From contig NW_026889758.1 of NCBI RefSeq assembly GCF_033153115.1, forward strand, positions 18,414,001 to 18,478,000: a stretch of DNA of 64,000 nt. The letters are read 5' to 3'. Shown here piece by piece: positions 148 to 56,812 of the stretch (position 1 is the stretch's first letter; every line of letters begins with the position of its first letter). The stretch is from Saccostrea echinata. Taxonomy: Eukaryota. The notes under the pieces were generated by a model that saw nothing but the letters and a program-made list of their open reading frames with translations, searched no databases and was not told the origin of the DNA. The position numbers were made by a program, and so were the translations under genes.

Positions 148-2171
148 CAGCGACTTGTTCAGAGGTTAAATTGTTCTATATGAATAAGTAAAAATATAGT
201 TTTTTTTCATGAATACGATTAATTGTTATGTGGTGGTATATTACAGACCCTACATAAATTATGTCTACATGCAAGATAAGTATTTCTACCAAATATTATG
301 TTGACATGCAAATTACCAAAGTTTTTACAAAATCTGATTTTAATATGGTTAAATTTTCTTATTAACACCTAGATCTGACATCATACTTGCAAGATGTAGA
401 TATTTATATCGACATGCAGCTTATTTATGTCAACATGTATCATAATTATGTTGTCACGCAAGTTATGTAGTTTATGCTCAAGTGCGAGTTAAATATTTTG
501 ACATGCAGCATACGTATGTCAACATGCAAATTAATAATTGTTTCAAGCAAGTTGATTATGTTGACATGTGACTAGTTTTATTGCATGTTTTTACAATTAA
601 CTTGCATTTCAACGTAATTATTGTTCATATTGACATAAAAAATAGTCGACATAATTTTTTCGCATGTCGACATAAATTAGTCGCATGCTAACATAATGTT
701 CTATGTCGACATAAATAACTTGCAACATCCAGGCTTTTTGATATCATTGACAGCTGCTTTTTCAATAAAAATGGAACTCGTAAATTTACTTACCTTGTCA
801 TTGGTCATTTGCAAAATTATTTTGTTAAAAAACACTCTGATTGTACACACAAGTACTCTGAAGTTGACATTAAAAAGATGCTTGAGTTTCTGATTGACAA
901 TATCTATGTGGTTTTTTTTTTTTTGGAGACCAGGTCTTCCAACAATCTGTTGGAATTCCCATGGGTACCAATTGCGCCCCGTTATTAGCAGACCTTTTTT
1001 TGTATTCATATGAAGCAGAATTTGTCCAAAATCTTGTACGTGAAAAGAAGAAAACACTTGCTGTGGCCTTCAACTCGACATTTAGATATATCGACGACGT
1101 ATTGTTAATTAACAATGGCTATTTCCATTCTTATGTCAATACGATATATCCCGGTGAGCTTGAGATTAAGGATACCACAGAGTCTGACACATCTGTTTCA
1201 TTTTTGGATATTTTACTTGAAAAAAGACGTTAATGGTAATCTTACAACCAAGCTGTATGATAAACGTGATGACTTTAACTTTTCAGTCGTCAACTTCGAT
1301 CCCTTACTTATGTAGCAATATACCTTCATCACCTGCATACAGGGTATGTATCTCTCAGTTGACTCGATACGCAAGAGCATGCCCTACGTATGTACAATTT
1401 CTAAAACGAGGTAAATTATTGACAAACAAGTTGATGAAACAAGAATATCAGCTGTCTCGTTTAAAGTCATCATTTCGTAAGTTCTGTGGTCGATACAATG
1501 ACCTTGTCAGCAAATACAATTTATCACCGAGTCAAATGCTGACTGACGTTTTTCATAGTAATTGTTAGGCCATTATTTACACACTGAATTGTCGATGGAT
1601 TTTTCCGTTATTTCCCGATCATGGCAAGGAGCACACGGCGGGTGTGACCGGTCGGCAGGGGATGCTCACTCCTCCATGGCACCTGATCCCACCTCTGATG
1701 TTTGGAGGTCCGTGTTTGCTATGCTCCTATTTTGTATTGTTTAATGGACTTTTTAGCTTGAATACTGTTCGTTATCTCCATATATTTCATTAGTAAGTAA
1801 ATTCAACAATATTAAAATCAGATTCTCTTAAATGATTGGTATCTTTCATGTTAATTCAATATCTTGCACGTAGACATAATTATCGTGCATGTTGACATGT
1901 TTTTTTTTTATTGCATGTTGACAGAATTTATCTTGTATGTAGGCGGCAGAAATATGTCACCATAGTGTCAAACACATTCATCACAGATACATGTATAAGG
2001 ATTGTGTTGTCTGACATAGTGTTTTGTTTGTCATTCAAGCAAATTCATGGTACCGCCAATGACAAAAATATAGTTTATGCACAAAGACAAGATTGGCTAA
2101 ATAAACATGTCTAACAGAGTCAAAGAAAACAAAGAAAAAGATTACAAATATAAGAATAAAAATCTTACCAT
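148..2171 (-). CDS. 5' part of a calmodulin-like (EF-hand) gene; continues beyond the left edge of the window
   Basis: Exon 1 is ATG|gtaag (2169-2171) next to a CCGGAA ETS-like motif. Exon 2 is 148-175, tag|AAC...GCT G|gtaagt, giving M-NNLTSEQVA-(E/D). This matches the calmodulin N-terminus MADQLTEEQIAE and its typical ATG-only first exon followed by a short phase-1 exon. Only 10 codons are visible. Confidence 0.65.
229..1964. mobile_element. MITE-like element with long imperfect TIRs and ATGTTGACAT/ATGTCAACAT internal repeats, interrupted by a Penelope-like insertion
   Basis: tgtggtggtatattacagaccctacata (229-256) is an imperfect inverted match of tatgtaggcggcagaaatatgtcaccata (1936-1964). 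About 260-360 also mirrors about 1795-1880. Confidence 0.7.
730..1790 (+). mobile_element. 5'-truncated, frameshifted Penelope-like retroelement (Naiad-like): RT C-terminal half plus 3' UTR
   Basis: Motifs QQSVGIPMGTNCAPLLADLFLYSYE, FRYIDD, FLD, KLYDKRDDF and SQLTRYARAC are spread over frameshifted ORFs 961-1568. The stop at 1568 is not preceded by a GIY-YIG domain. Confidence 0.9.
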
Positions 2172-5964: not shown

Positions 5965-6670
5965 AAAGCAGGGGCTGTATTGTGGTGGGGGTGTATATTC
6001 TTCCGTCCGTTTGTACGTCCGTCCGTTAAGCATTGGGGTACCCATCTCTTATCCGCAACTTCTCCAATACCAACGAATAACATTTAATTATACTTTCAAT
6101 ATAAAAAAAAAATATAATGATACTTTCAATTTTTATTACACAAAGCATGGACACTGTCATTCTTTCTATCGGGGGTACTCATTTCTTATCCGCAACTATA
6201 AAAATGATACTTTCACAGAATCTTTATTACAGATCGAGTGCCATTATGCACTTCCTGCTTTATATTTTGATCAGACATATATTTGGGATATCCCATGGCN
6301 NNNNNNNNNNNNNNNNNNNNNNNNNNNNNNNNNNNNNNNNNNNNNNNNNNNNNNNNNNNNNNNNNNNNNNNNNNNNNNNNNNNNNNNNNNNNNNNNNNNN
6401 NNNNNNNNNNNNNNNNNNNNNNNNNNNNNNNNNNNNNNNNNNNNNNNCCGTTTCTCTTATGATAACCATCCCTTATCCACTCAATGTAATATTAAATGAA
6501 ACTTTCACAAAATCTTTATTACATGTATAAAGTGGCATTGTACATCTTCTATTTTCCTTTCTATCCGACACATGGCAAAACATGGGCCCATGTCTTATCT
6601 GCAACTCCTCCTATACCACTAAATAAAATTTAATCACAAAATATTTATAACACAGTGCCATTGTGAACCT
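5965..6670 (+). mobile_element. Helentron-associated non-autonomous element fragment with internal tandem units (spans the gap)
   Basis: (ccgt)n microsatellite head followed by repeated cccatctcttatccgcaact...tttcacagaatctttattaca units. The same head occurs at about 22101-22280. Confidence 0.55.
6300..6447. other. Assembly gap (148 N)
   Basis: Run of N inside a tandem-repeat element. Confidence 1.
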
Positions 6671-19044: not shown

Positions 19045-22000
19045 TGGCCAGACCCTCTTTCAAGGGGAAATAATTAAGAATTAGTTTTTCTCAAGAACCA
19101 CTGTGCCAGAAAAGATGGAACTTAATGAAAGCTTCATTACATTGTGTATATTTAAGCTTGTTCAAGTTATAACCCTCAGAGGTAGGTTAGGAGTTAGGAC
19201 CACAAAAGGCAATCAAAGATTTAAATTAGAATATATAAATGAAAATCTTTAAAAATCTTCTTTTCAAGAAATACCAAACCAGAACAGTTGAAACTTATGT
19301 GGAAGCTTAATTACAAAGTGTAGATTCAAATTTGTCCAAATCATGATACCCGGGGATACATGTATGATGGGGTCGCAATAGGTGATTAAAGTTTTCCATA
19401 GGAATATATAGGAAAAAATATGGAAAAACCTTATCCTCAAGAACCACCAGGCCAGAAAAGATGCAACTCTTGCATGAAAGCTTCATTACTAGTGTATGTT
19501 CAAGTTTGTAAAAATCATGACCCCCATGTGCTTCATGTTCTTATGAAAGATCTACATGTAAGTAATGGTATTTTAACTTTATTTCAGGTTATCAGCCCAA
19601 GAGACTTTAAGAATCTGACCAGAGCACATGCAGTGGAGGAAGAGGTACTGGTTAACCTATTAATGTACATAGAATAAATACTAGTAAATGTAAAAGACTA
19701 AGTAAATAAATGAAAAGTGAATGTCATCAGTGTGGTATAATGCTAGAATCAGCTTTAGCTTCCTATCTTAATGCAACAAATGTAAATGTCAAATTTCATT
19801 CAGAAGTACCGTAAACAGACTTAGCATAGAAGCAAGTACATGTACTACCGGAAGTTGGTTTTACTGTTTGTCTGCTTTGATATTTTGCTGTATGGTGGAT
19901 ATCTTTTTCAGTATGACTTCTCCTTAGAGGAAGGAGTCCTGAAATGGGCAGATGAGAGACAAAAACAACTTGCTGCCCAGCAACGAGCAGAGGAAGAACG
20001 TCGAGTGAGAGCACAGCAGGAGGCTGATGATAAAAGCTCGGACTCGGATCAGTCAGAGCATGAGTATGAAAATGATGGGTGGCAAAATAACAAAGTCATC
20101 TCTCCACCCGCGGCAGTGACACAGGCTCCAACCAGACCTGTGTTACCAGCTATATCTAATGATATCTTGACGCCTGTAGATGTTTCATGTCAAAATGACT
20201 CTTCCAACCAAACTAATTCGGATTCACAGAAACCTGTGGATTTTTCATTGTTTGAAACAGAGGATGATCCCTTTGATAGATTTGAGAGGTTGACTCTGAA
20301 TGACTTAACTGAGTTAAAAAGTGTGTTTGACAACAGTGGTAATGCAAAAGACACAACTGGAGGGTCAAAGAAACAAGAAACTGTGTATGAAAACACAAAG
20401 ATATTGAACAATCCTCCCAATGGTGTTGTGACATCAAGCTCTTCTGTAAATTCAGTGACTGACAAAGAAGATGGAGGGAATTATGTTGAATTGGATATAA
20501 CAAAGAAGCCAGAACGGCCCAACGGAAATGTCAAGAATAAAATTGTTAGAAAACAAAAAACATACAAGGGTAAAGTCATACCCCCAGTTCCTCCACGACC
20601 AAGCTTGGCTGCCAAAAGCCCCCTTCCACCTATAGGAATAGGAGCTAATGACAGTTCAGCACCCAGTGGCACTGGAAAATCAACAAATCCCTTTAAACAA
20701 GATGAGACTGATGGTTCCCATGAAAAACCAGTGTGTAAAAGTGAATTCCAATCAAACACTTATGAAAATGTGAGTGTTATGAGTGATCAACAGTCTGTTA
20801 GTTTTTCAAAGGCACCAACTTTTGGCATTGTTAATGATACTGATGGTTCATTACAAAGTACCAATCCATTCCTACCTACAAATCAACAACCAAAGGAGAC
20901 ATCATCTAAAAACTCTAAAGCATATGTAAATGTGGCTCCTGTTAAACCTTTTGGGGTTCCTCAACCCAGACTGACCAGTAGTTTACCAGATCCATCAAGT
21001 AACCAGAGTCAAGATTTACCCCTCCCACTCACAATCTCACCTCCACCAAGACCCTCCTCCAAACAGGTAAAATCACTTGTGCAAACGATTGTTCAGTGAG
21101 TAATGAAACCATTTTGATTAACCTCGTTTCTCAACACTAACACTTCAAAATTCTTTATTTTTATCTCCTTTTTGTTGTTTTAATAATGAATTGTGATTCA
21201 CTTTTGCATCTTTTTTCATCTGTTTAGTTGAAAGAATTTAACACTGCTTTGTTCATGTTGTTATATATATATATATCAAAAACTATTATTCATTAAGTTG
21301 TGTACAAGCTTTCATACAAAGTAGTGCATAAAACAGTAACCACATTGTCAAACTTTGAGTGTTGTGTAATGTATATAGATATTAGAGCCTGTGTCTTTCA
21401 TTCTTTCATGTAAATTTTTAACAGGATCCACCAGGAAACATACAAGCAGTAAGTATGAAGCACCCCCCCCCCCCCCCACTTCCTGTTGTAATGTTTCCCT
21501 AGTTCTGCCTTTGTTCTGCATTGCATGTAGTCATCAGAATTAACAGGAAGTTTTCTCCCAAGGCCATTCCTAATGACCTTAAATGTACAAGAATTATTAC
21601 TACCCAATGCATGTATTGTTTCACCTACTTATCGTGTTTTCTAAGTATTGAGTTAATAACAACAGTAAAATACAGTGACATACATCCTCCACAAAAGTTT
21701 AGGGACAGCTGAAAATTTGGCTTTGTAAGTGGTTAATAAAATTTTACATAAAGATGACATTATTTTAGAGTATATGAGACAAAATTATGCCTTTGTTTCA
21801 ATAATGTTTTCACTATTAGCACGGTGACTGCATAAACATATTTTACTGCCATAGCTTAAACAGGTGCTAATACACTGGTCAGTCTCTCTTCACTAGCTTA
21901 GATTTTTTTGTACCTATTATAACAGATTCTAAAACACTTATTAGGCCTTCTTCACAAGCTTAAATCTTCTGTACCTATTATAACTTGTGCTAATCCACTT

Positions 22001-48719: not shown

Positions 48720-51700
48720 TTAGTTGCTGCTGTGGCGAAGCTTGATGTTTTTCTTTGATGTCGATGACTTCAATTTCTCTTGAGCCTTTCTCGATACAGT
48801 TTTTGATTGTCCAGCATATTTTTGAACATCATTCCTAAAATAAATATTTCAACTATAAAATGAAATATTCCTTGACAAATATTTTTTCTCAAATTATCAT
48901 TCATTGTTAAATGTACACGTATATTTAGAACAGTACTTGCCTGCTCATTCTAGTCTTGTCTCTGCATCCTTTTCCCCCTTCCCAGAATGCGGTGCGGACT
49001 TGAGTCATTGACTTCTTGCATGCCACACAGGCTTTATCCAGTGCAAAAGGCTGTTCTTTACAACAATGTCCACAAATCATTCTGGTGGCAAGCAGCATCT
49101 CGTGATCCCCTTCCTTCATCTCATGGCAGATGTCACATGGGTAACACTTACCACAGCAGGGAAACCTAAAAGAAGAACAGGTCCATGTTAGTAAGATTTA
49201 AGTTCTATTGTCCTCTATAGATGTTACAGGACTAATCATTGCTAAAAATAAAGGTATGTAATTCTGAAAATTAATCTACCTGAACCATCGATAACTTTTC
49301 TTGTAATGTTTACATGTCCCATCATCAGGCAGAGGGCGACCTAATTGGATCTCCGGTTCTTTCAAATTTTTCTTTGGTTTTAAGACTGGTACTTTATGCA
49401 AACTCTTCTCATCTGAAAATGTAATCCAAACATTTCGATGGAGAATACACAAATAAGCCTCTAAAACACAGTTAAACTTAGGTATCGAAAACATAGGCGT
49501 GCTGAAGTGAGTTGAAAGTTCCAACCACTTTTTCTTTATGTATTCTAACCTCAACATCTCAAATCCTCAAAAACATGTATATTGAATTTTTTTCTCAGCT
49601 ACATCTAGTTCAAGATAATGAGGTTTGACTGTATCTACAGTCAGCTAATCAGCAAGCTGTAAAGTGATACCTGTTTCTGGCTCTGAAGGAAGAAGCTGGG
49701 CAAACTTGACAGACTCTGCTGACACTTTCATTTTTCCATGACATGTAGAGCACCACGTCTCTGTAACTTGTCCAAAAGCCATACTCTATTTCATGAAAAA
49801 TTAAGTTGGCATAAACACAAACAGGATATTGAAGACAGAACTAAAAGATCTTCTTTTATTTTTTCTTTTGCCTTCAATAAATTTACAAATTTATCTACAG
49901 TTAACATTTTTTTCTATAAAATATACCTTGGCTTTCATTTCTTTGTTGCAGCTGAAGCATCCTAGCTTAAACATACAGTCCTGAAGAATGACATCAAATG
50001 GAAGACAGCCATCTAAATCCAGATAGCCAACTACAGACGAGAACTGATGCATGATTGCTGAACGGAAGGTCAAAACCTGAGGGTAGCTGCATTTTAAACA
50101 AGTCACCAGGTTAGGCCTCCCTGAGGGTGTGCTGACATCCATCTTGTTTTTGCAGCGTGCACATTGAATGATGATTTTCAGACTACAGCAGGTAAGTGTA
50201 GAGGCATTGTCTTTCAGTGTCAGATTCCTCAGCTTTATTTCTGTGCCCCGTCTTTCATCTTTTTCTGGTTTGTTTTCAGTTATGGCAGACTCAATCAAAT
50301 CATCATCCTCATCTGATGAAGATTCATCATCTTGCTGTGGACCTGCAAGACATTTCGAAATTACAATGGTTAATCATCAATGGGCAAAGTATATAAAGGG
50401 GCATTACTCAATGAAAATCTTGTCTCATCAAGACTGAATGAATTATTCCTGTACATAAAACACTTCACACTTACCTGTATAAACTAGGTCATCATCTGTC
50501 TTTCTGTAGGCAACTCCTTGAAACATATTGCTTTCATCCTCACCCTCCTCTTCCTCCTCCTCCTCATTCCCCTCCTCATCATCATCACTTACTGCTGCTT
50601 TTACTTTTTCTTGTAGTTTGGATGCTGGAATAAACTGTAGTCCTGCTGCTTTGGCTTCCAGCTCCTTCTTTAACTGAAATTATTTTTAAGAAATCGTCAC
50701 TCCTTTAAAACCTAGATTTTATTACTTCCATCTTTAAAAAATATTTTTACACCATACAGATCACAAAAATACATCTTTTTATAAAAGGAGGACTTCTACA
50801 GAAATTTGAAGTTATATGAGAGTATATATTAATTGCATACATTTTTAAGATTACTAACCTGTTTTAGAGCACCTGTAACAATAGATTCCAGACTCCTGTC
50901 CAGCCATTTCAGAAAAGGTCGAAACTCCAGTCTAACAATTCCGGCACTTATCAACTCTGCCTGTTTCGTATTTACCCAGTCTTCTAGAGATGCTTCTATG
51001 TACCTAAATAAAATAGTTTACAAACATTACTGTTTACATTCCAATTCCACATAAGTCTTAAAGCATGGATTAAAATTGTAAATATTGTATATGAAAACAA
51101 GAATACTTTGTACTGTCAGTATATATTACCATCAAATTACACAATGTTGAAATTTACCTTCGTACTGTCTCTGGTAAATTCTGTTCATCAGGTAGTCTAA
51201 CAACAAACATCTACAAAAACAAGAGTATTGTTTTCCAGCAAAAGTTTCAAAAGCACATCTTATTCATCATTGTGCTTATTGCAATACCATAAAGGTCTGA
51301 AACTATAAATGTAAGTTACCTCCAGTGGGTATTCCTGTGGTATCATGACTTGCAAATTGAATACTTCCACATCATATGGCTAAAAAAAAAAATAGACATT
51401 TCAAAATTACATAAGAACATGTTTGAAAAGCTTATGTGTAGGAAAATCTTATTCAGTAAGCAACCTCAGTTTCACAGAATTTTAATTATAAATGCACTTA
51501 TTAAAATCTTACCCAGTCTGGGTCACTAGATGAAAAGTCAAACTGGATACAGAAGTTGTCTTTGCTGTCAGTAATGACTTCTAAATTAGATGATGCAAGC
51601 CTCTTTTTCAGTTGTTCAATTTCTGTCAATCGGAGTTGTTCAACCTCTTTTTTAGTTAAACTATCTCTCTTAAATTCCTTCACTGGCTGGACTGGTCTGG

Positions 51701-52367
51701 GTACCACTTTTCTCTGGCCAGATCCTGGTGTAACCTTTTTTGGTTCCTTTCTGTCATTGGTGTGGCCTGCTAATACTCCTTTATTATAACCATCTTCTTC
51801 TTTCTTTGCTTGTTTCCCATCCTCTGCTATTATGGCATCCGAAATATCTCCTTCACCAACTTCATCTGAATGATAAAATCTGCAATCAGCTCCCTTCTGG
51901 CAATGACCTGCCAGATAGTAGTGACAGGTTCTCTTTCTTCCTTGGATCTGCTGATTTTCATTTCTCTTACTAGAATCATTCTCATGTTTTCTCTCCGATT
52001 TCAAACTTCTGTCAGATTTTTGTACCTTAAAATGTGTTTTCTTTGGCAATGCATGAAGAAAACGACACTTATTCCCATATCTGCAATTTCCATGTTTTTC
52101 AAAACTGAAACAGAGTTTTTGTGTTGTGTCTTTTTCCTTGTTTACCGTCTCATGATTCTGATTTCTTAAAGACAGCTGAGAAACAGTAGTAGAAAGAGGG
52201 TCGGCTTCTAAATGCTCGTTTACTGGCGTTCCATTTTCTTGATAATCTGGTATTGATGGACTAGAAATACTTGTTGAAGGAGAATGCAAAAATTTACAGT
52301 TCTCTTTGAATTTACAACCACTTTTTGTGTTAAAATACTGGCAAATTGGTTTTGATCTATTTAGCAT
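48720..52367 (-). CDS. Uncharacterised 3xCCCH zinc finger / RWD-like / CHY zinc finger protein (S. pombe C18H10.09-like), ~771 aa, 10 coding exons
   Basis: Exons 52367-51513, 51379-51320, 51210-51158, 51003-50859, 50673-50475, 50342-49927, 49785-49671, 49412-49280, 49165-48941 (GC donor), 48834-48720 total 2316 nt in frame. Three C-x7/8-C-x5-C-x3-H fingers; SDPDWPYD...IPQEYP; four CxxC pairs; GTCKHYKKSYRWFRFPCCGKCYPCDICH; FWEGGKGCRD. Confidence 0.9.
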
Positions 52368-52711
52368 ACTACGATAACCGACCTCAGATGAAGAGTTTTG
52401 CCCGTAGAACAGGTTTGTTGTAAATTCCTTACCACAAATCGAGATTACTTCCAACAGTGTAATGGAAAGCGATGAGTTTTTACTGTAACCTCCGCCGAAC
52501 ACAGTTGATACAAGCCTATCAAGTTTTGAAGCGACGTGTGCAAGCTCGACAGGTGAGCTTACACTCAGTGATGAAAGAAAACTTAGTTTTAGGAAGGTTG
52601 GTCTGGTACGATGAACGCCCAAAGGGCTGTGGTTTTGCTTCTAAATATGTCGTCCTATATATACTGTTTTCAGAAAGCTGAATTAGGTCATAAAATTGCA
52701 CAATGTATTGG

Positions 52712-52719
52712 CCGGAAGT
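52712..52719 (+). promoter_or_regulatory. ETS/GABP-type motif CCGGAAGT in the likely promoter or leader of the CHY-finger gene
   Basis: Exact motif in a CpG-enriched region about 350 nt upstream of the ATG. Confidence 0.4.
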
Positions 52720-55613: not shown

Positions 55614-56741
55614 TCAGTGTTCAGATTTTTTGTGTTTGTGCTTGTGTTTATGCTTGTGTTTATGTTTATCTCTGCTATGCTCTCTGCTTCTATGCTCTCG
55701 GCTTCTGCTTCTATGCTCTCTGCTTCTATGCTCTCGGCTTCTGCTTCTATGCTCTCGGCTTCTGCTTCTGTTTCTTTCCCTGTCCTTATCATGCTTCATG
55801 TCCCTTTCTCTGTGTCTACTTTTTTCACGACTTCTGCTCCTGTGTTTATTTCTGTGATAAGATGTATCAAGTCTTCTTCTTCTGTCTTCGTCTTTTTGTT
55901 GGACATCAGCATTTTGTTTTCCATCAATCTTTTCTGTAACTGTTACAGTGTCCTCAAAGTCCTTTGTATGCTCTGTCAATGTGTGTCTTTCCGTGACTTG
56001 TTGGTCACATTGCTGATCTTGTTTTAATATCTCTGTGAGATATTCTGTTTGATTTTCAATCACTTCCTTGATGATCTAAATAATAAAAATACATGCAAAG
56101 AAATTTTCATCAAAACAGCATATATGTAAAAGAACAGCTTAATAGCCAACTCATGGAGATGTCACATGATTGTAATATTTAAAGGATAGTTAAAAAAAAC
56201 CCCATACTTCTATGCAACAACTACTCTAACACAAATGAGTCTGGAGATTACAGGTACCTCTGTATAAGATTTCCTCGTGATGTGTACATTTTTTGCTCTG
56301 TATGACTGCCTCCTTCTCTTGTAGTCTCTCATAGCCTTCAGATACTCTGTATAACTTGTAGGCTTACTATTCTGTCCCTCTGCAAAACATTTAGAATATT
56401 TAGTTAATGGTGACAGACACATCACCATGTATCTTTTCTCAAAAAATCTTAAATAAAACCTTACTTTACTGAAAGATGCATCATATATCAAACTTGATGT
56501 ACTTGACATCTCAACAGATTTTTTTCTATTACCTAAAGCTTTCTTTTTAACAATTTCTTGAAAATCTGCTGTCAGCAGAGTATCTGTTTCCAGTCCTTGA
56601 ATATTTCTTTGCTCTTTGGCTCTGTTTATTATATAGCTATGAAGGGCACCACGTTCACTTGGGGTAAGCAAAATGGTTTCCTCCTCAGTTGTCAAAGGGA
56701 CTTCACTCTTGCCATAAAAAACTGCACATGAAATACAAATA

Positions 56742-56812
<71 letters not shown>

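What the first reader, a model, noticed from the sequence alone, without database searches (positions are those of the whole stretch)
48720..52367. Uncharacterised multi-zinc protein joining RNA-binding CCCH fingers to an RWD-like module and a CHY finger
Seen: three CCCH fingers; an EIEQLKKR...SDPDWPYD...LQVMIPQEYP segment resembling an RWD (E2-like) fold; long acidic tracts; four CxxC pairs (CARC, CLKC, CFSC, CSTC); a CHY finger; and a basic WEGGKGCRDKTRMSR tail. Known: CCCH fingers bind RNA, and RWD and CHY domains occur in ubiquitin-pathway and ribosome-associated proteins; the C-terminal part resembles the fission-yeast uncharacterised C18H10.09 family (from memory). No RING is visible. 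Inference: a conserved but unstudied RNA/ribosome quality-control or ubiquitin adaptor, and the strongest candidate here for an undescribed system.
Basis: partly seen in the sequence, partly recalled or inferred. Interest (0 to 1): 0.7.

Follow-up and report, generated by a model that had tools for sequence, protein, structure and literature searches.

The report
Ribosome-hibernation fold in unstudied zinc protein
This is a real, spliced oyster gene from an old and unstudied eukaryotic family, whose predicted middle domain matches a fold so far known only from human C1orf123/CZIB and its relatives, including a parasite factor that blocks idle ribosomes, so it likely works as a ribosome-bound adaptor, though that role is untested.

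Summary
A single-copy, 10-exon minus-strand gene (52367-48720) encodes 771 aa, 89% identical to a Saccostrea cucullata protein; all nine introns appear as joints in one public run. Architecture: 3 CCCH, RWD (no conserved cysteine), acidic linker, four-CxxC domain, CHY finger, basic tail, no RING. The family spans animals, fungi, amoebozoans, CRuMs and an alveolate. CCCH fingers are optional; RWD-zinc-CHY-tail is the core.
New here: the four-CxxC domain is predicted (pLDDT about 97) to be an internally duplicated, two-zinc version of the CZIB/C1orf123/DUF866 fold (Z 9.1-12.2; best unrelated 3.8). That fold includes microsporidian MDF1, which blocks the ribosomal E site. The RWD matches Yil161w of the FAP-80S complex and RWDD3 about equally. 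The CHY finger has Asp where Pirh2 has its Ala-tail-binding Arg41.
Best reading (0.4): a non-catalytic adaptor on idle or stalled ribosomes. Against: no sequence-level link to CZIB, CZIB's hairpin and acidic motif are absent, and the fission-yeast RNA-capture signal appears to rest on imputed wild-type values. No functional study found in ten literature searches. Verdict: known but unstudied family with a new, testable structural lead.

The parts
51513..52367 (-). Coding exon 1 (aa 1-285): start codon, three CCCH fingers, low-confidence spacers, first half of RWD
   Evidence: joint to exon 2 in run X1
52284..52343 (-). CCCH finger 1 (aa 9-28)
52053..52112 (-). CCCH finger 2 (aa 86-105)
   Evidence: PF00642
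51870..51926 (-). CCCH finger 3 (aa 148-166)
50647..51665 (-). RWD (E2-like, no conserved cysteine) domain, aa ~235-380, spread over exons 1-5
   Evidence: model pLDDT ~96; VIA Z 12.0 Yil161w, 10.9 RWDD3, 10.3 GCN2; Pfam RWD in 16 of 21 segments; cysteine count
51320..51379 (-). Coding exon 2 (aa 286-305)
51158..51210 (-). Coding exon 3 (aa 306-323)
50859..51003 (-). Coding exon 4 (aa 323-371)
50475..50673 (-). Coding exon 5 (aa 372-438): end of RWD, first acidic tract
50260..50589 (-). Acidic, low-confidence linker (aa ~400-465, net charge -25), exons 5-6
49927..50342 (-). Coding exon 6 (aa 438-576): second acidic tract and three of the four CxxC pairs
49693..50250 (-). Predicted two-zinc CZIB/DUF866/MDF1-like domain (aa ~469-607), internal two-fold repeat, exons 6-7
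   Evidence: pLDDT ~97; Foldseek E 8e-6 to 3e-4; VIA Z 9.1-12.2 against best unrelated 3.8; repeat test
49671..49785 (-). Coding exon 7 (aa 577-615): fourth CxxC pair
49280..49412 (-). Coding exon 8 (aa 615-659): basic linker and start of CHY
49018..49314 (-). CHY zinc finger (aa 648-708), Pirh2-like N-terminal part only
   Evidence: PF05495; VIA Z 8.5 to Pirh2 7ynx, rmsd 2.0, 69 aligned
48941..49165 (-). Coding exon 9 (aa 659-734), ends at a GC donor
48720..48987 (-). Conserved basic tail (aa ~719-771, begins at the WEGG motif) and stop codon; coding exon 10 is 48834-48720
   Evidence: joint 48833/48940
52368..52686 (-). Likely 5' untranslated region (contigs of three runs cover parts of it; contigs do not show a start site)
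48485..48719 (-). Likely 3' untranslated region (covered by the spliced contig of X1)

Best explanation
The gene encodes a multi-zinc protein with no visible catalytic site that likely acts as an adaptor on idle or stalled 80S ribosomes. Shown: gene structure, splicing, domain order, conservation across eukaryotes, no RING and no conserved RWD cysteine. Predicted: the middle domain is a two-zinc CZIB/MDF1 fold. Inferred steps: (1) the CZIB/MDF1-like domain would sit in or near an empty E site by the L1 stalk, as MDF1 does; (2) the CHY finger and its conserved basic tail would anchor on rRNA; (3) the optional CCCH fingers (or an RRM in one lineage) would hold mRNA; (4) the RWD, tethered by the acidic linker, would recruit a partner such as an E2/E3 enzyme or GCN1, so that the ribosome is either kept silent or marked for ubiquitin-dependent quality control.
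For: The only strong fold matches of the middle domain among 48,161 representative chains are five CZIB-fold chains. Three are chains of microsporidian ribosome structures (6rm3_SNN, 8p5d_MD1, 7qep_MD; Z 9.1-9.7), next to human C1orf123 (Z 12.2, rmsd 2.9, 135 aligned) and 1zso (Z 10.1); the best unrelated row is Z 3.8 (same chains). MDF1 blocks the E site and contacts the L1 stalk like a deacylated tRNA (passages of PMC8807834; PMC10522483). The RWD's top VIA row is Yil161w in the FAP-80S complex (Z 12.0; chain named). GCN2, IMPACT, RWDD1 and RNF14 use RWD domains to bind GCN1, which binds collided ribosomes (passages of PMC10931611). The tail is basic (median net +7 in 145 rows) with W717 149/149, R724 148/149, K736 143/149; the CHY has R653 148/149 and R656 147/149 (P0001 numbering). 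Extra domains in 72 diverse members are mostly nucleic-acid binders: CCCH in up to 14, Myb/SANT in 2, RRM in 1. The S. pombe protein was among 10 uncharacterised candidates enriched on poly(A)+ RNA after UV crosslinking in an exosome-cofactor mutant (log2 1.76, p 7.6e-5 in mtl1-1).
Against: A shared fold shows no function. Structural identity to CZIB/MDF1 is 8-12%, and hhalign against a thin two-sequence CZIB profile gives 1.3%, inside the range of 40 shuffles. CZIB's own motifs are absent. CZIB has 30 residues with a GGRG loop between its CxxC pairs (P0282) against a median of 19 here, and the family's second half carries a second zinc site where CZIB has a W-DYD motif. I could not see which MDF1 residues touch the ribosome (original paper not held). 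In the papers I read, E-site binding is shown only in microsporidia; the human C1orf123 paper reports zinc binding and a CCS interaction (PMC6160046 passages). Yil161w is not clearly the closest RWD: RWDD3 is at Z 10.9, the Yil161w row's range runs beyond the RWD, and a family profile ranks UBE2L6 (6.8e-5) and RWDD3 (1.4e-4) above Yil161w (0.035). The S. pombe RNA evidence is weak. Its three wild-type pull-down values are identical to those of another protein in the same table, which points to imputed background (imputation described). No enrichment was seen in rrp6 or dis3 mutants. No experiment places any family member on a ribosome.
Confidence: 0.4

Rival explanations
1. It is an mRNP or RNA-decay adaptor that works off the ribosome: CCCH fingers and the basic tail bind transcripts, and the RWD and zinc domains recruit decay or exosome-linked factors.
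For: Two or more CCCH fingers in 107 of 121 hits of the animal set. The best sequence matches in the PDB are CCCH proteins such as tristetraprolin and CPSF4. The S. pombe protein rises on poly(A)+ RNA in mtl1-1.
Against: CCCH is absent from 106 of 148 representative hits, many partial, including the S. japonicus protein. S. pombe deletion gave no nuclear poly(A) retention and was not among the strains with raised tf2-1 RNA or a silencing defect (section read). The capture signal appears to rest on imputed wild-type values.
Confidence: 0.2
2. It is a ubiquitin- or SUMO-pathway adaptor unrelated to translation: the RWD binds an E2 (as RWDD3 binds UBC9), and the CHY pocket or the CZIB-like domain picks a substrate or degron for a RING partner in trans.
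For: RWDD3 is among the best RWD matches by fold (4y1l_C, Z 10.9) and by profile (1.4e-4). The CHY matches the degron-binding Pirh2 domain (Z 8.5) and keeps the Tyr23 equivalent (Y648 139/149). Many fungal members have two RWDs (73 of 270 stored proteins have two or more).
Against: No RING. Pirh2 Arg41, needed for Ala-tail binding (PMC10148881 passages), is Asp in 139 of 149, and the rest of the Pirh2 groove (residues 92-167) has no counterpart. The reading does not explain the basic tail or the RNA-binding add-ons.
Confidence: 0.2
3. It is a zinc-binding scaffold or metal/redox helper, like the CHY protein Hot13 (recalled) or the proposed metal-trafficking role of C1orf123.
For: At least seven predicted zinc sites, with invariant ligands in the middle domain and CHY. 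Human C1orf123 binds zinc through CxxC pairs and interacts with the CCS metal domain in two-hybrid assays (PMC6160046 passages).
Against: Four-cysteine zinc ribbons are usually structural (general knowledge). Strongly conserved non-ligand Arg/Trp residues in CHY and tail, the RWD and the CCCH fingers are not explained.
Confidence: 0.1
4. It is the nucleoporin NUP42, as UniRef labels many orthologues.
For: The label appears on many hits; NUP42 has a CCCH finger (recalled).
Against: One FG dipeptide in 771 aa (sequence). No nucleoporin family in the Pfam scans. The RWD-zinc-CHY core is not a nucleoporin feature (recalled). The label looks like automatic transfer from the CCCH finger.
Confidence: 0.02

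Closest known systems
Database family of S. pombe SPBC18H10.09 / zebrafish si:dkey-24l11.2 ('CHY-type domain-containing protein')
   Same: Same RWD-acidic-zinc-CHY-tail order; fish si:dkey-24l11.2 proteins are 45-48% identical over the C-terminal 281 aa; the S. japonicus member was recovered.
   Different: Nothing marks the oyster gene as other than an ordinary member. It has three CCCH fingers and one RWD, where many fungi have none or one and two. It has Phe where most animals have His716.
CZIB / C1orf123 / DUF866 (PF05907) and microsporidian MDF1
   Same: Predicted same fold over the whole domain (Z 9.1-12.2, 126-135 residues aligned); first zinc site from two CxxC pairs.
   Different: 8-12% identity and no profile match. 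Second zinc site, shorter first loop without GGRG, no W-DYD motif. Embedded in a 450-950 aa protein, not a 160-aa stand-alone one. The oyster has a separate true CZIB gene.
Yil161w of the yeast FAP complex, and GCN1-binding RWD proteins (GCN2, IMPACT/Yih1, RWDD1/Gir2, RNF14, RNF25)
   Same: RWD fold without conserved cysteine; an acidic stretch follows, as in RWDD1 (recalled).
   Different: No kinase, RING or DFRP domain. Family-specific DPD(W/F)P loop and basic end of helix 1. Orthology to Yil161w is not shown (profile E 0.035).
Pirh2/RCHY1 (Ala-tail C-degron E3 ligase)
   Same: CHY fold (rmsd 2.0 over 69 residues) and the Tyr23 equivalent.
   Different: Arg41 replaced by Asp; no CTCHY, RING or C-terminal domain; a WEGG basic tail follows instead.

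Membership tests
SPBC18H10.09 / si:dkey-24l11.2 family | RWD - four-CxxC domain - CHY - WEGG tail in one chain | tested here: met
   110 of 148 representative hits carry RWD, zinc domain and CHY by profiles built from the animal set; the other 38 lack a detected part, many being partial
SPBC18H10.09 / si:dkey-24l11.2 family | Direct sequence match to S. pombe SPBC18H10.09 | tested here: inconclusive
   S. pombe protein not retrieved; S. japonicus P0231 with the same label matches the zinc-domain (2e-28) and CHY (2.5e-45) profiles
CZIB/DUF866/MDF1 | MAL13P1.257-like fold | tested here: met
   predicted models
CZIB/DUF866/MDF1 | Match to PF05907 or to a CZIB profile | tested here: not met
   no PF05907 row; hhalign 1.3% on a two-sequence template
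CZIB/DUF866/MDF1 | Single zinc site, 30-residue GGRG loop, W-DYD motif, stand-alone 160 aa | tested here: not met
   four invariant CxxC pairs, loop median 19, fused protein
CZIB/DUF866/MDF1 | Binds the ribosomal E site | not testable with these tools
   needs sedimentation or cryo-EM
RWD domain proteins | E2-like fold with YP motif and no catalytic cysteine | tested here: met
   Y299/P300 in 118 of 121; the most cysteine-rich RWD column holds Cys in 13 of 121 and 22 of 134; fold
GCN1-binding RWD proteins | Acidic residues equal to GCN2 D37/E125/E136 | tested here: inconclusive
   residues named in 10.64898/2026.04.27.721104; no residue-level alignment to GCN2 was obtained. The family keeps D355 and E359 in the last helix (116 and 117 of 134) but has a basic end of helix 1
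Catalytic E2 (UBC) | Conserved active-site cysteine | tested here: not met
   UQ_con hits are below cut-off and cover only the first 60-70 profile positions
Pirh2/RCHY1 E3 ligases | CHY finger | tested here: met
Pirh2/RCHY1 E3 ligases | RING domain and Arg41 carboxylate pocket | tested here: not met
Nucleoporin NUP42 | FG repeats | tested here: not met
   one FG in 771 aa

The most novel reading that the evidence does not exclude
An ancient eukaryotic ribosome surveillance or hibernation factor, missed because human and budding yeast appear to lack it (recalled, not tested). A two-zinc, symmetric relative of the MDF1 fold senses an empty E site, and the same chain couples this through its RWD to GCN1 or ubiquitin signalling. 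It would be a first direct link between E-site hibernation factors and ribosome quality control, and would show the likely ancestral state of the CZIB fold.
Probability: 0.2. Interest if true: 0.8.

Novelty: new variant of a known kind. Interest (0 to 1): 0.52.

Why it matters
A family kept across several eukaryotic supergroups, with over 20 invariant residues, has no described function and is often labelled NUP42. Assigning its orphan domain to the CZIB/MDF1 fold gives that fold a second family and a concrete test (E-site binding) in organisms with a deletion strain already made (S. pombe) or easy genetics (zebrafish). If it is right, it adds a factor to ribosome hibernation or quality control that work in human cells and budding yeast would probably have missed. 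For intertidal animals such as oysters it would be a candidate for translational shutdown during emersion (speculation).

Tried and rejected
Complex prediction of the RWD part against the zinc-CHY-tail part of P0001: no answer, score 0.01, alignments not used; not counted either way.
Sequence-level link to CZIB: none.
Orthology to Yil161w: not supported beyond a shared RWD.
Pirh2-like Ala-tail receptor: rejected.
Catalytic E2: rejected. The 24 HPN-Cys regex hits were not located by the script; in the one fungal sequence I read (P0011) that motif lies in the CHY finger, so I did not count them.
ESM Atlas: only CHY-family clusters (best 0.87) and generic RWD clusters (0.80), all under 0.9; leads only.
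PDB sequence search with P0001 found only CCCH proteins at E<0.001.
Sequencing runs: no holder is on record as RNA. X2-X4 covered little of the gene when laid, despite word shares near 0.5.
Wild-type RNA-capture values for SPBC18H10.09 first looked like enrichment but were set aside as imputed.
No mention of the gene in the readable supplements of PMC10547477 (3 files, which may be cut). The one supplement of PMC13345908 was a scan and could not be searched.
Barandun 2019 (MDF1) and Li 2022 (Fap1) were not held, so their interface residues and supplements are unseen and may bear on the claim.
No earlier scan findings were returned.
Neighbouring genes show no functional link.
The Theileria 'C18H10.09' label was not checked.
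Absence from human, budding yeast, insects or land plants was not tested: only the top 120 of 470 and 150 of 1216 hits were listed.
Full report
1. The gene. The window is A+T-rich animal DNA, placed at G000:C9 in a 923 Mb assembly. The minus strand holds ten coding exons: 52367-51513, 51379-51320, 51210-51158, 51003-50859, 50673-50475, 50342-49927, 49785-49671, 49412-49280, 49165-48941 and 48834-48720. They give a 771-aa open frame, with a GC donor on the last intron. The product matches a Saccostrea cucullata protein (P0001, 768 aa) at 690/772 identities, so the host is an oyster close to Saccostrea. In 1 of 4 public runs laid, two contigs show all nine introns as joints at the predicted places, including exon 1 to exon 2; the other three covered little of the gene, and the runs are RNA by the tool's guess only. 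Two exons used as queries each found one match in the genome.

2. Anatomy. Pfam finds three CCCH fingers and a CHY finger, with only sub-threshold RWD/UQ_con hits in P0001. With 121 animal-set relatives, the RWD region (232-377) and the four-CxxC region (466-604) both reach pLDDT about 96-97, with low-confidence linkers and a poor CHY. Refolding residues 462-768 with 149 diverse relatives gave mean pLDDT 90.5, including the CHY. Net charges in the window protein: CCCH region +11, RWD -8, acidic linker -25, zinc domain +8, tail +12.

3. The family. A search with the C-terminal 281 aa gave 470 hits, of which 120 were listed: molluscs, annelids, brachiopod, priapulid, chelicerates, echinoderms, hemichordates, amphioxus, cnidarians and teleosts (si:dkey-24l11.2). 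A search with the fungal C-terminal part gave 1216 clusters at E<=0.001 and 403 at 1e-30, of which 150 were listed. I looked up 30 of those 150. The named non-fungal members carry RWD, zinc domain and CHY. Of 148 representative hits, 110 show all three parts. CCCH fingers number two or more in 107 of 121 animal-set proteins but are absent from 106 of 148 representatives. 73 of 270 stored proteins have two or more RWDs. The conserved core is RWD-acidic-zinc-CHY-basic tail, and the spread suggests an early eukaryotic origin (inference). Loss in human and budding yeast is recalled, not tested.

4. The new result: the middle domain. Foldseek and VIA-align agree on both models. The strong matches are human C1orf123/CZIB (5zrt: Z 12.2, rmsd 2.9, 135 aligned, 11% identity), Plasmodium 1zso (Z 10.1) and three chains from microsporidian ribosome structures (6rm3_SNN, 8p5d_MD1, 7qep_MD; Z 9.1-9.7). 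Then come Pirh2 for the CHY part (Z 8.3-8.5) and unrelated rows from Z 3.8 down. The papers on 7QEP and 8P5D describe MDF1 in those entries. It occupies the E site, mimics a deacylated tRNA elbow and closes the L1 stalk; the 8P5D assignment is called ambiguous by its authors (passages of PMC8807834, PMC10522483, 10.1101/2025.08.26.670498 and PMC7644102). The domain here is not a CZIB member. It has no PF05907 hit, no profile match to two CZIB sequences (1.3%, within shuffles), and the oyster has its own CZIB gene elsewhere. It has four invariant CxxC pairs (149 of 149) with median spacing 19-41-19, against two pairs 30 residues apart in CZIB. Its halves align to each other (probability 95%, score 36.6), above all 30 controls that keep the cysteines and shuffle the other columns (best 23.2). 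It is therefore best described as a symmetric two-zinc variant of the CZIB fold, perhaps close to the ancestral state (inference).

5. RWD. The top VIA rows are Yil161w in the FAP-80S stalled-ribosome complex (Z 12.0, rmsd 3.4, 126 aligned, range extending past the domain), RWDD3 (10.9), RWDD2B, RWDD2A, GCN2, RWDD1, Yih1 and RNF25 (8.8-10.6) (chain name). A 21-sequence RWD profile ranks UBE2L6 and RWDD3 first and Yil161w at E 0.035, so I claim an RWD, not a Yil161w orthologue. There is no conserved cysteine. Several RWD proteins bind GCN1 on collided ribosomes, while RWDD3 binds UBC9 (passages of PMC10931611 and 10.64898/2026.04.27.721104). Fap1 acts in 18S nonfunctional rRNA decay (passages of PMC9953336). 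Whether the GCN1-contact acids are kept could not be settled.

6. CHY and tail. The finger overlays the Pirh2 N-terminal domain. Pirh2 binds the free carboxyl of Ala-tails with Tyr23 and Arg41 (passages of PMC10148881). By the alignment, the family has Tyr at the first position (139 of 149) and Asp at the second (139 of 149), and it lacks the RING half of the groove. It is not an Ala-tail receptor; the pocket may instead bind a basic group, possibly from its own tail (inference). Positions 716 and 723 co-vary: His-Cys in 31 and Phe-Thr in 70 of 149. This suggests an extra zinc site in most animals that fungi and this oyster (Phe-Cys) lack. The CHY and tail are the most conserved part of the protein, with near-invariant Arg, Trp and Lys, as expected of an RNA- or partner-binding surface.

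7. What is in print. Ten full-text searches were run. The exact terms SPBC18H10.09 (word start) and dkey-24l11.2, and CHY+RWD+CCCH together, gave no papers. 'C18H10.09' anywhere gave 3 records, 2 listed. One is a table label in Theileria (passage). The other is a fission-yeast study (preprint section 9, journal-version passages and supplement rows). There the protein was one of ten uncharacterised candidates, up log2 1.76 on poly(A)+ RNA in mtl1-1 but unchanged in rrp6 and dis3 mutants, and its deletion caused no nuclear poly(A) retention. In the related wild-type dataset (PMC7397868, supplement row and passages) its three pull-down values equal those of the DUF866 protein digit for digit, which indicates imputed background. 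So RNA binding has weak, single-condition support. The searches on MDF1/C1orf123/CZIB, seen as listings, showed no title or abstract start that links the fold to this family. Subscription papers and unseen supplements may hold more.

8. Mechanism. Shown: an intact gene whose introns appear as joints in a public run, a conserved domain order, no RING and no conserved RWD cysteine. Predicted: CZIB/MDF1 and RWD folds. Inferred: a ribosome-bound adaptor in which the MDF1-like domain reads an empty E site, the CHY-tail unit holds rRNA, the optional CCCH/RRM modules hold mRNA, and the RWD on an acidic tether brings in an E2/E3 or GCN1 (0.4). The case rests on each folded module having close structural relatives among ribosome-bound or ribosome-quality-control proteins, which is suggestive, not proof. 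Rivals: off-ribosome mRNP adaptor (0.2), ubiquitin/SUMO adaptor unrelated to translation (0.2), metal scaffold (0.1), NUP42 (0.02); the remainder is for roles not considered.

9. Verdict. The gene is an ordinary member of a family that databases already hold but nobody appears to have studied. The added value is the fold assignment, which gives the CZIB/MDF1 fold a second, fused, two-zinc family and a direct experiment. Novelty: new variant of a known kind. Interest 0.52.

Noticed in passing
window 48835-48940: The last intron has a GC donor; the joint is seen in run X1.
   Followed up: yes
window 19825-21099 +: 424-aa open exon without a Pfam hit; resembles the middle of UBAP1 (recalled).
   Followed up: partly
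window 40026-41801 -: Exons of a mitochondrial carrier gene (PF00153, E 5e-18).
   Followed up: partly
window 55614-56812 -: Arg/Ser/Glu-rich exon and an upstream exon of the next gene on the same strand; no Pfam hit; resembles U11/U12 snRNP 48 kDa protein (recalled).
   Followed up: partly
window 898-1568 +: Two overlapping frames of a degenerate retroelement; weak reverse transcriptase hit (E 3e-4, below cut-off).
   Followed up: no
window 49509-49634: Part of intron 7 is hit by many short contigs with loose ends in several runs, so it is probably a small interspersed repeat.
   Followed up: no
window 52712-52719 +: A CCGGAAGT motif (ETS-type, recalled) lies just beyond the furthest contig end upstream of the gene (52686).
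   Followed up: no
P0284 (Vitrella brassicaformis), residues 182-229: A Myb/SANT domain is inserted between RWD and acidic linker (E 1.2e-7). 2 of 72 diverse members have one and 1 of 72 has an RRM. SANT domains also occur in the ribosome-associated chaperone DNAJC2 (recalled).
   Followed up: partly
P0001 positions 716 and 723: His-Cys versus Phe-Thr co-variation suggests a third CHY zinc site gained or lost; this oyster has Phe-Cys.
   Followed up: partly
G000:C62:4220050-4220160 (L001) and G000:C37:3751960-3752094: An exon of the oyster's true CZIB gene, and a second CHY-finger locus not examined.
   Followed up: partly
P0011 (Gyalolechia): The family member is fused to an N-terminal DUF3295 protein, probably a merged gene model.
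   Followed up: no
UniRef names: Many orthologues are labelled 'Nucleoporin NUP42', and some as a CPSF subunit or RCHY1; these look like automatic mislabels.
   Followed up: partly
window 6300-6447: A run of 148 N, far from the gene.
   Followed up: no
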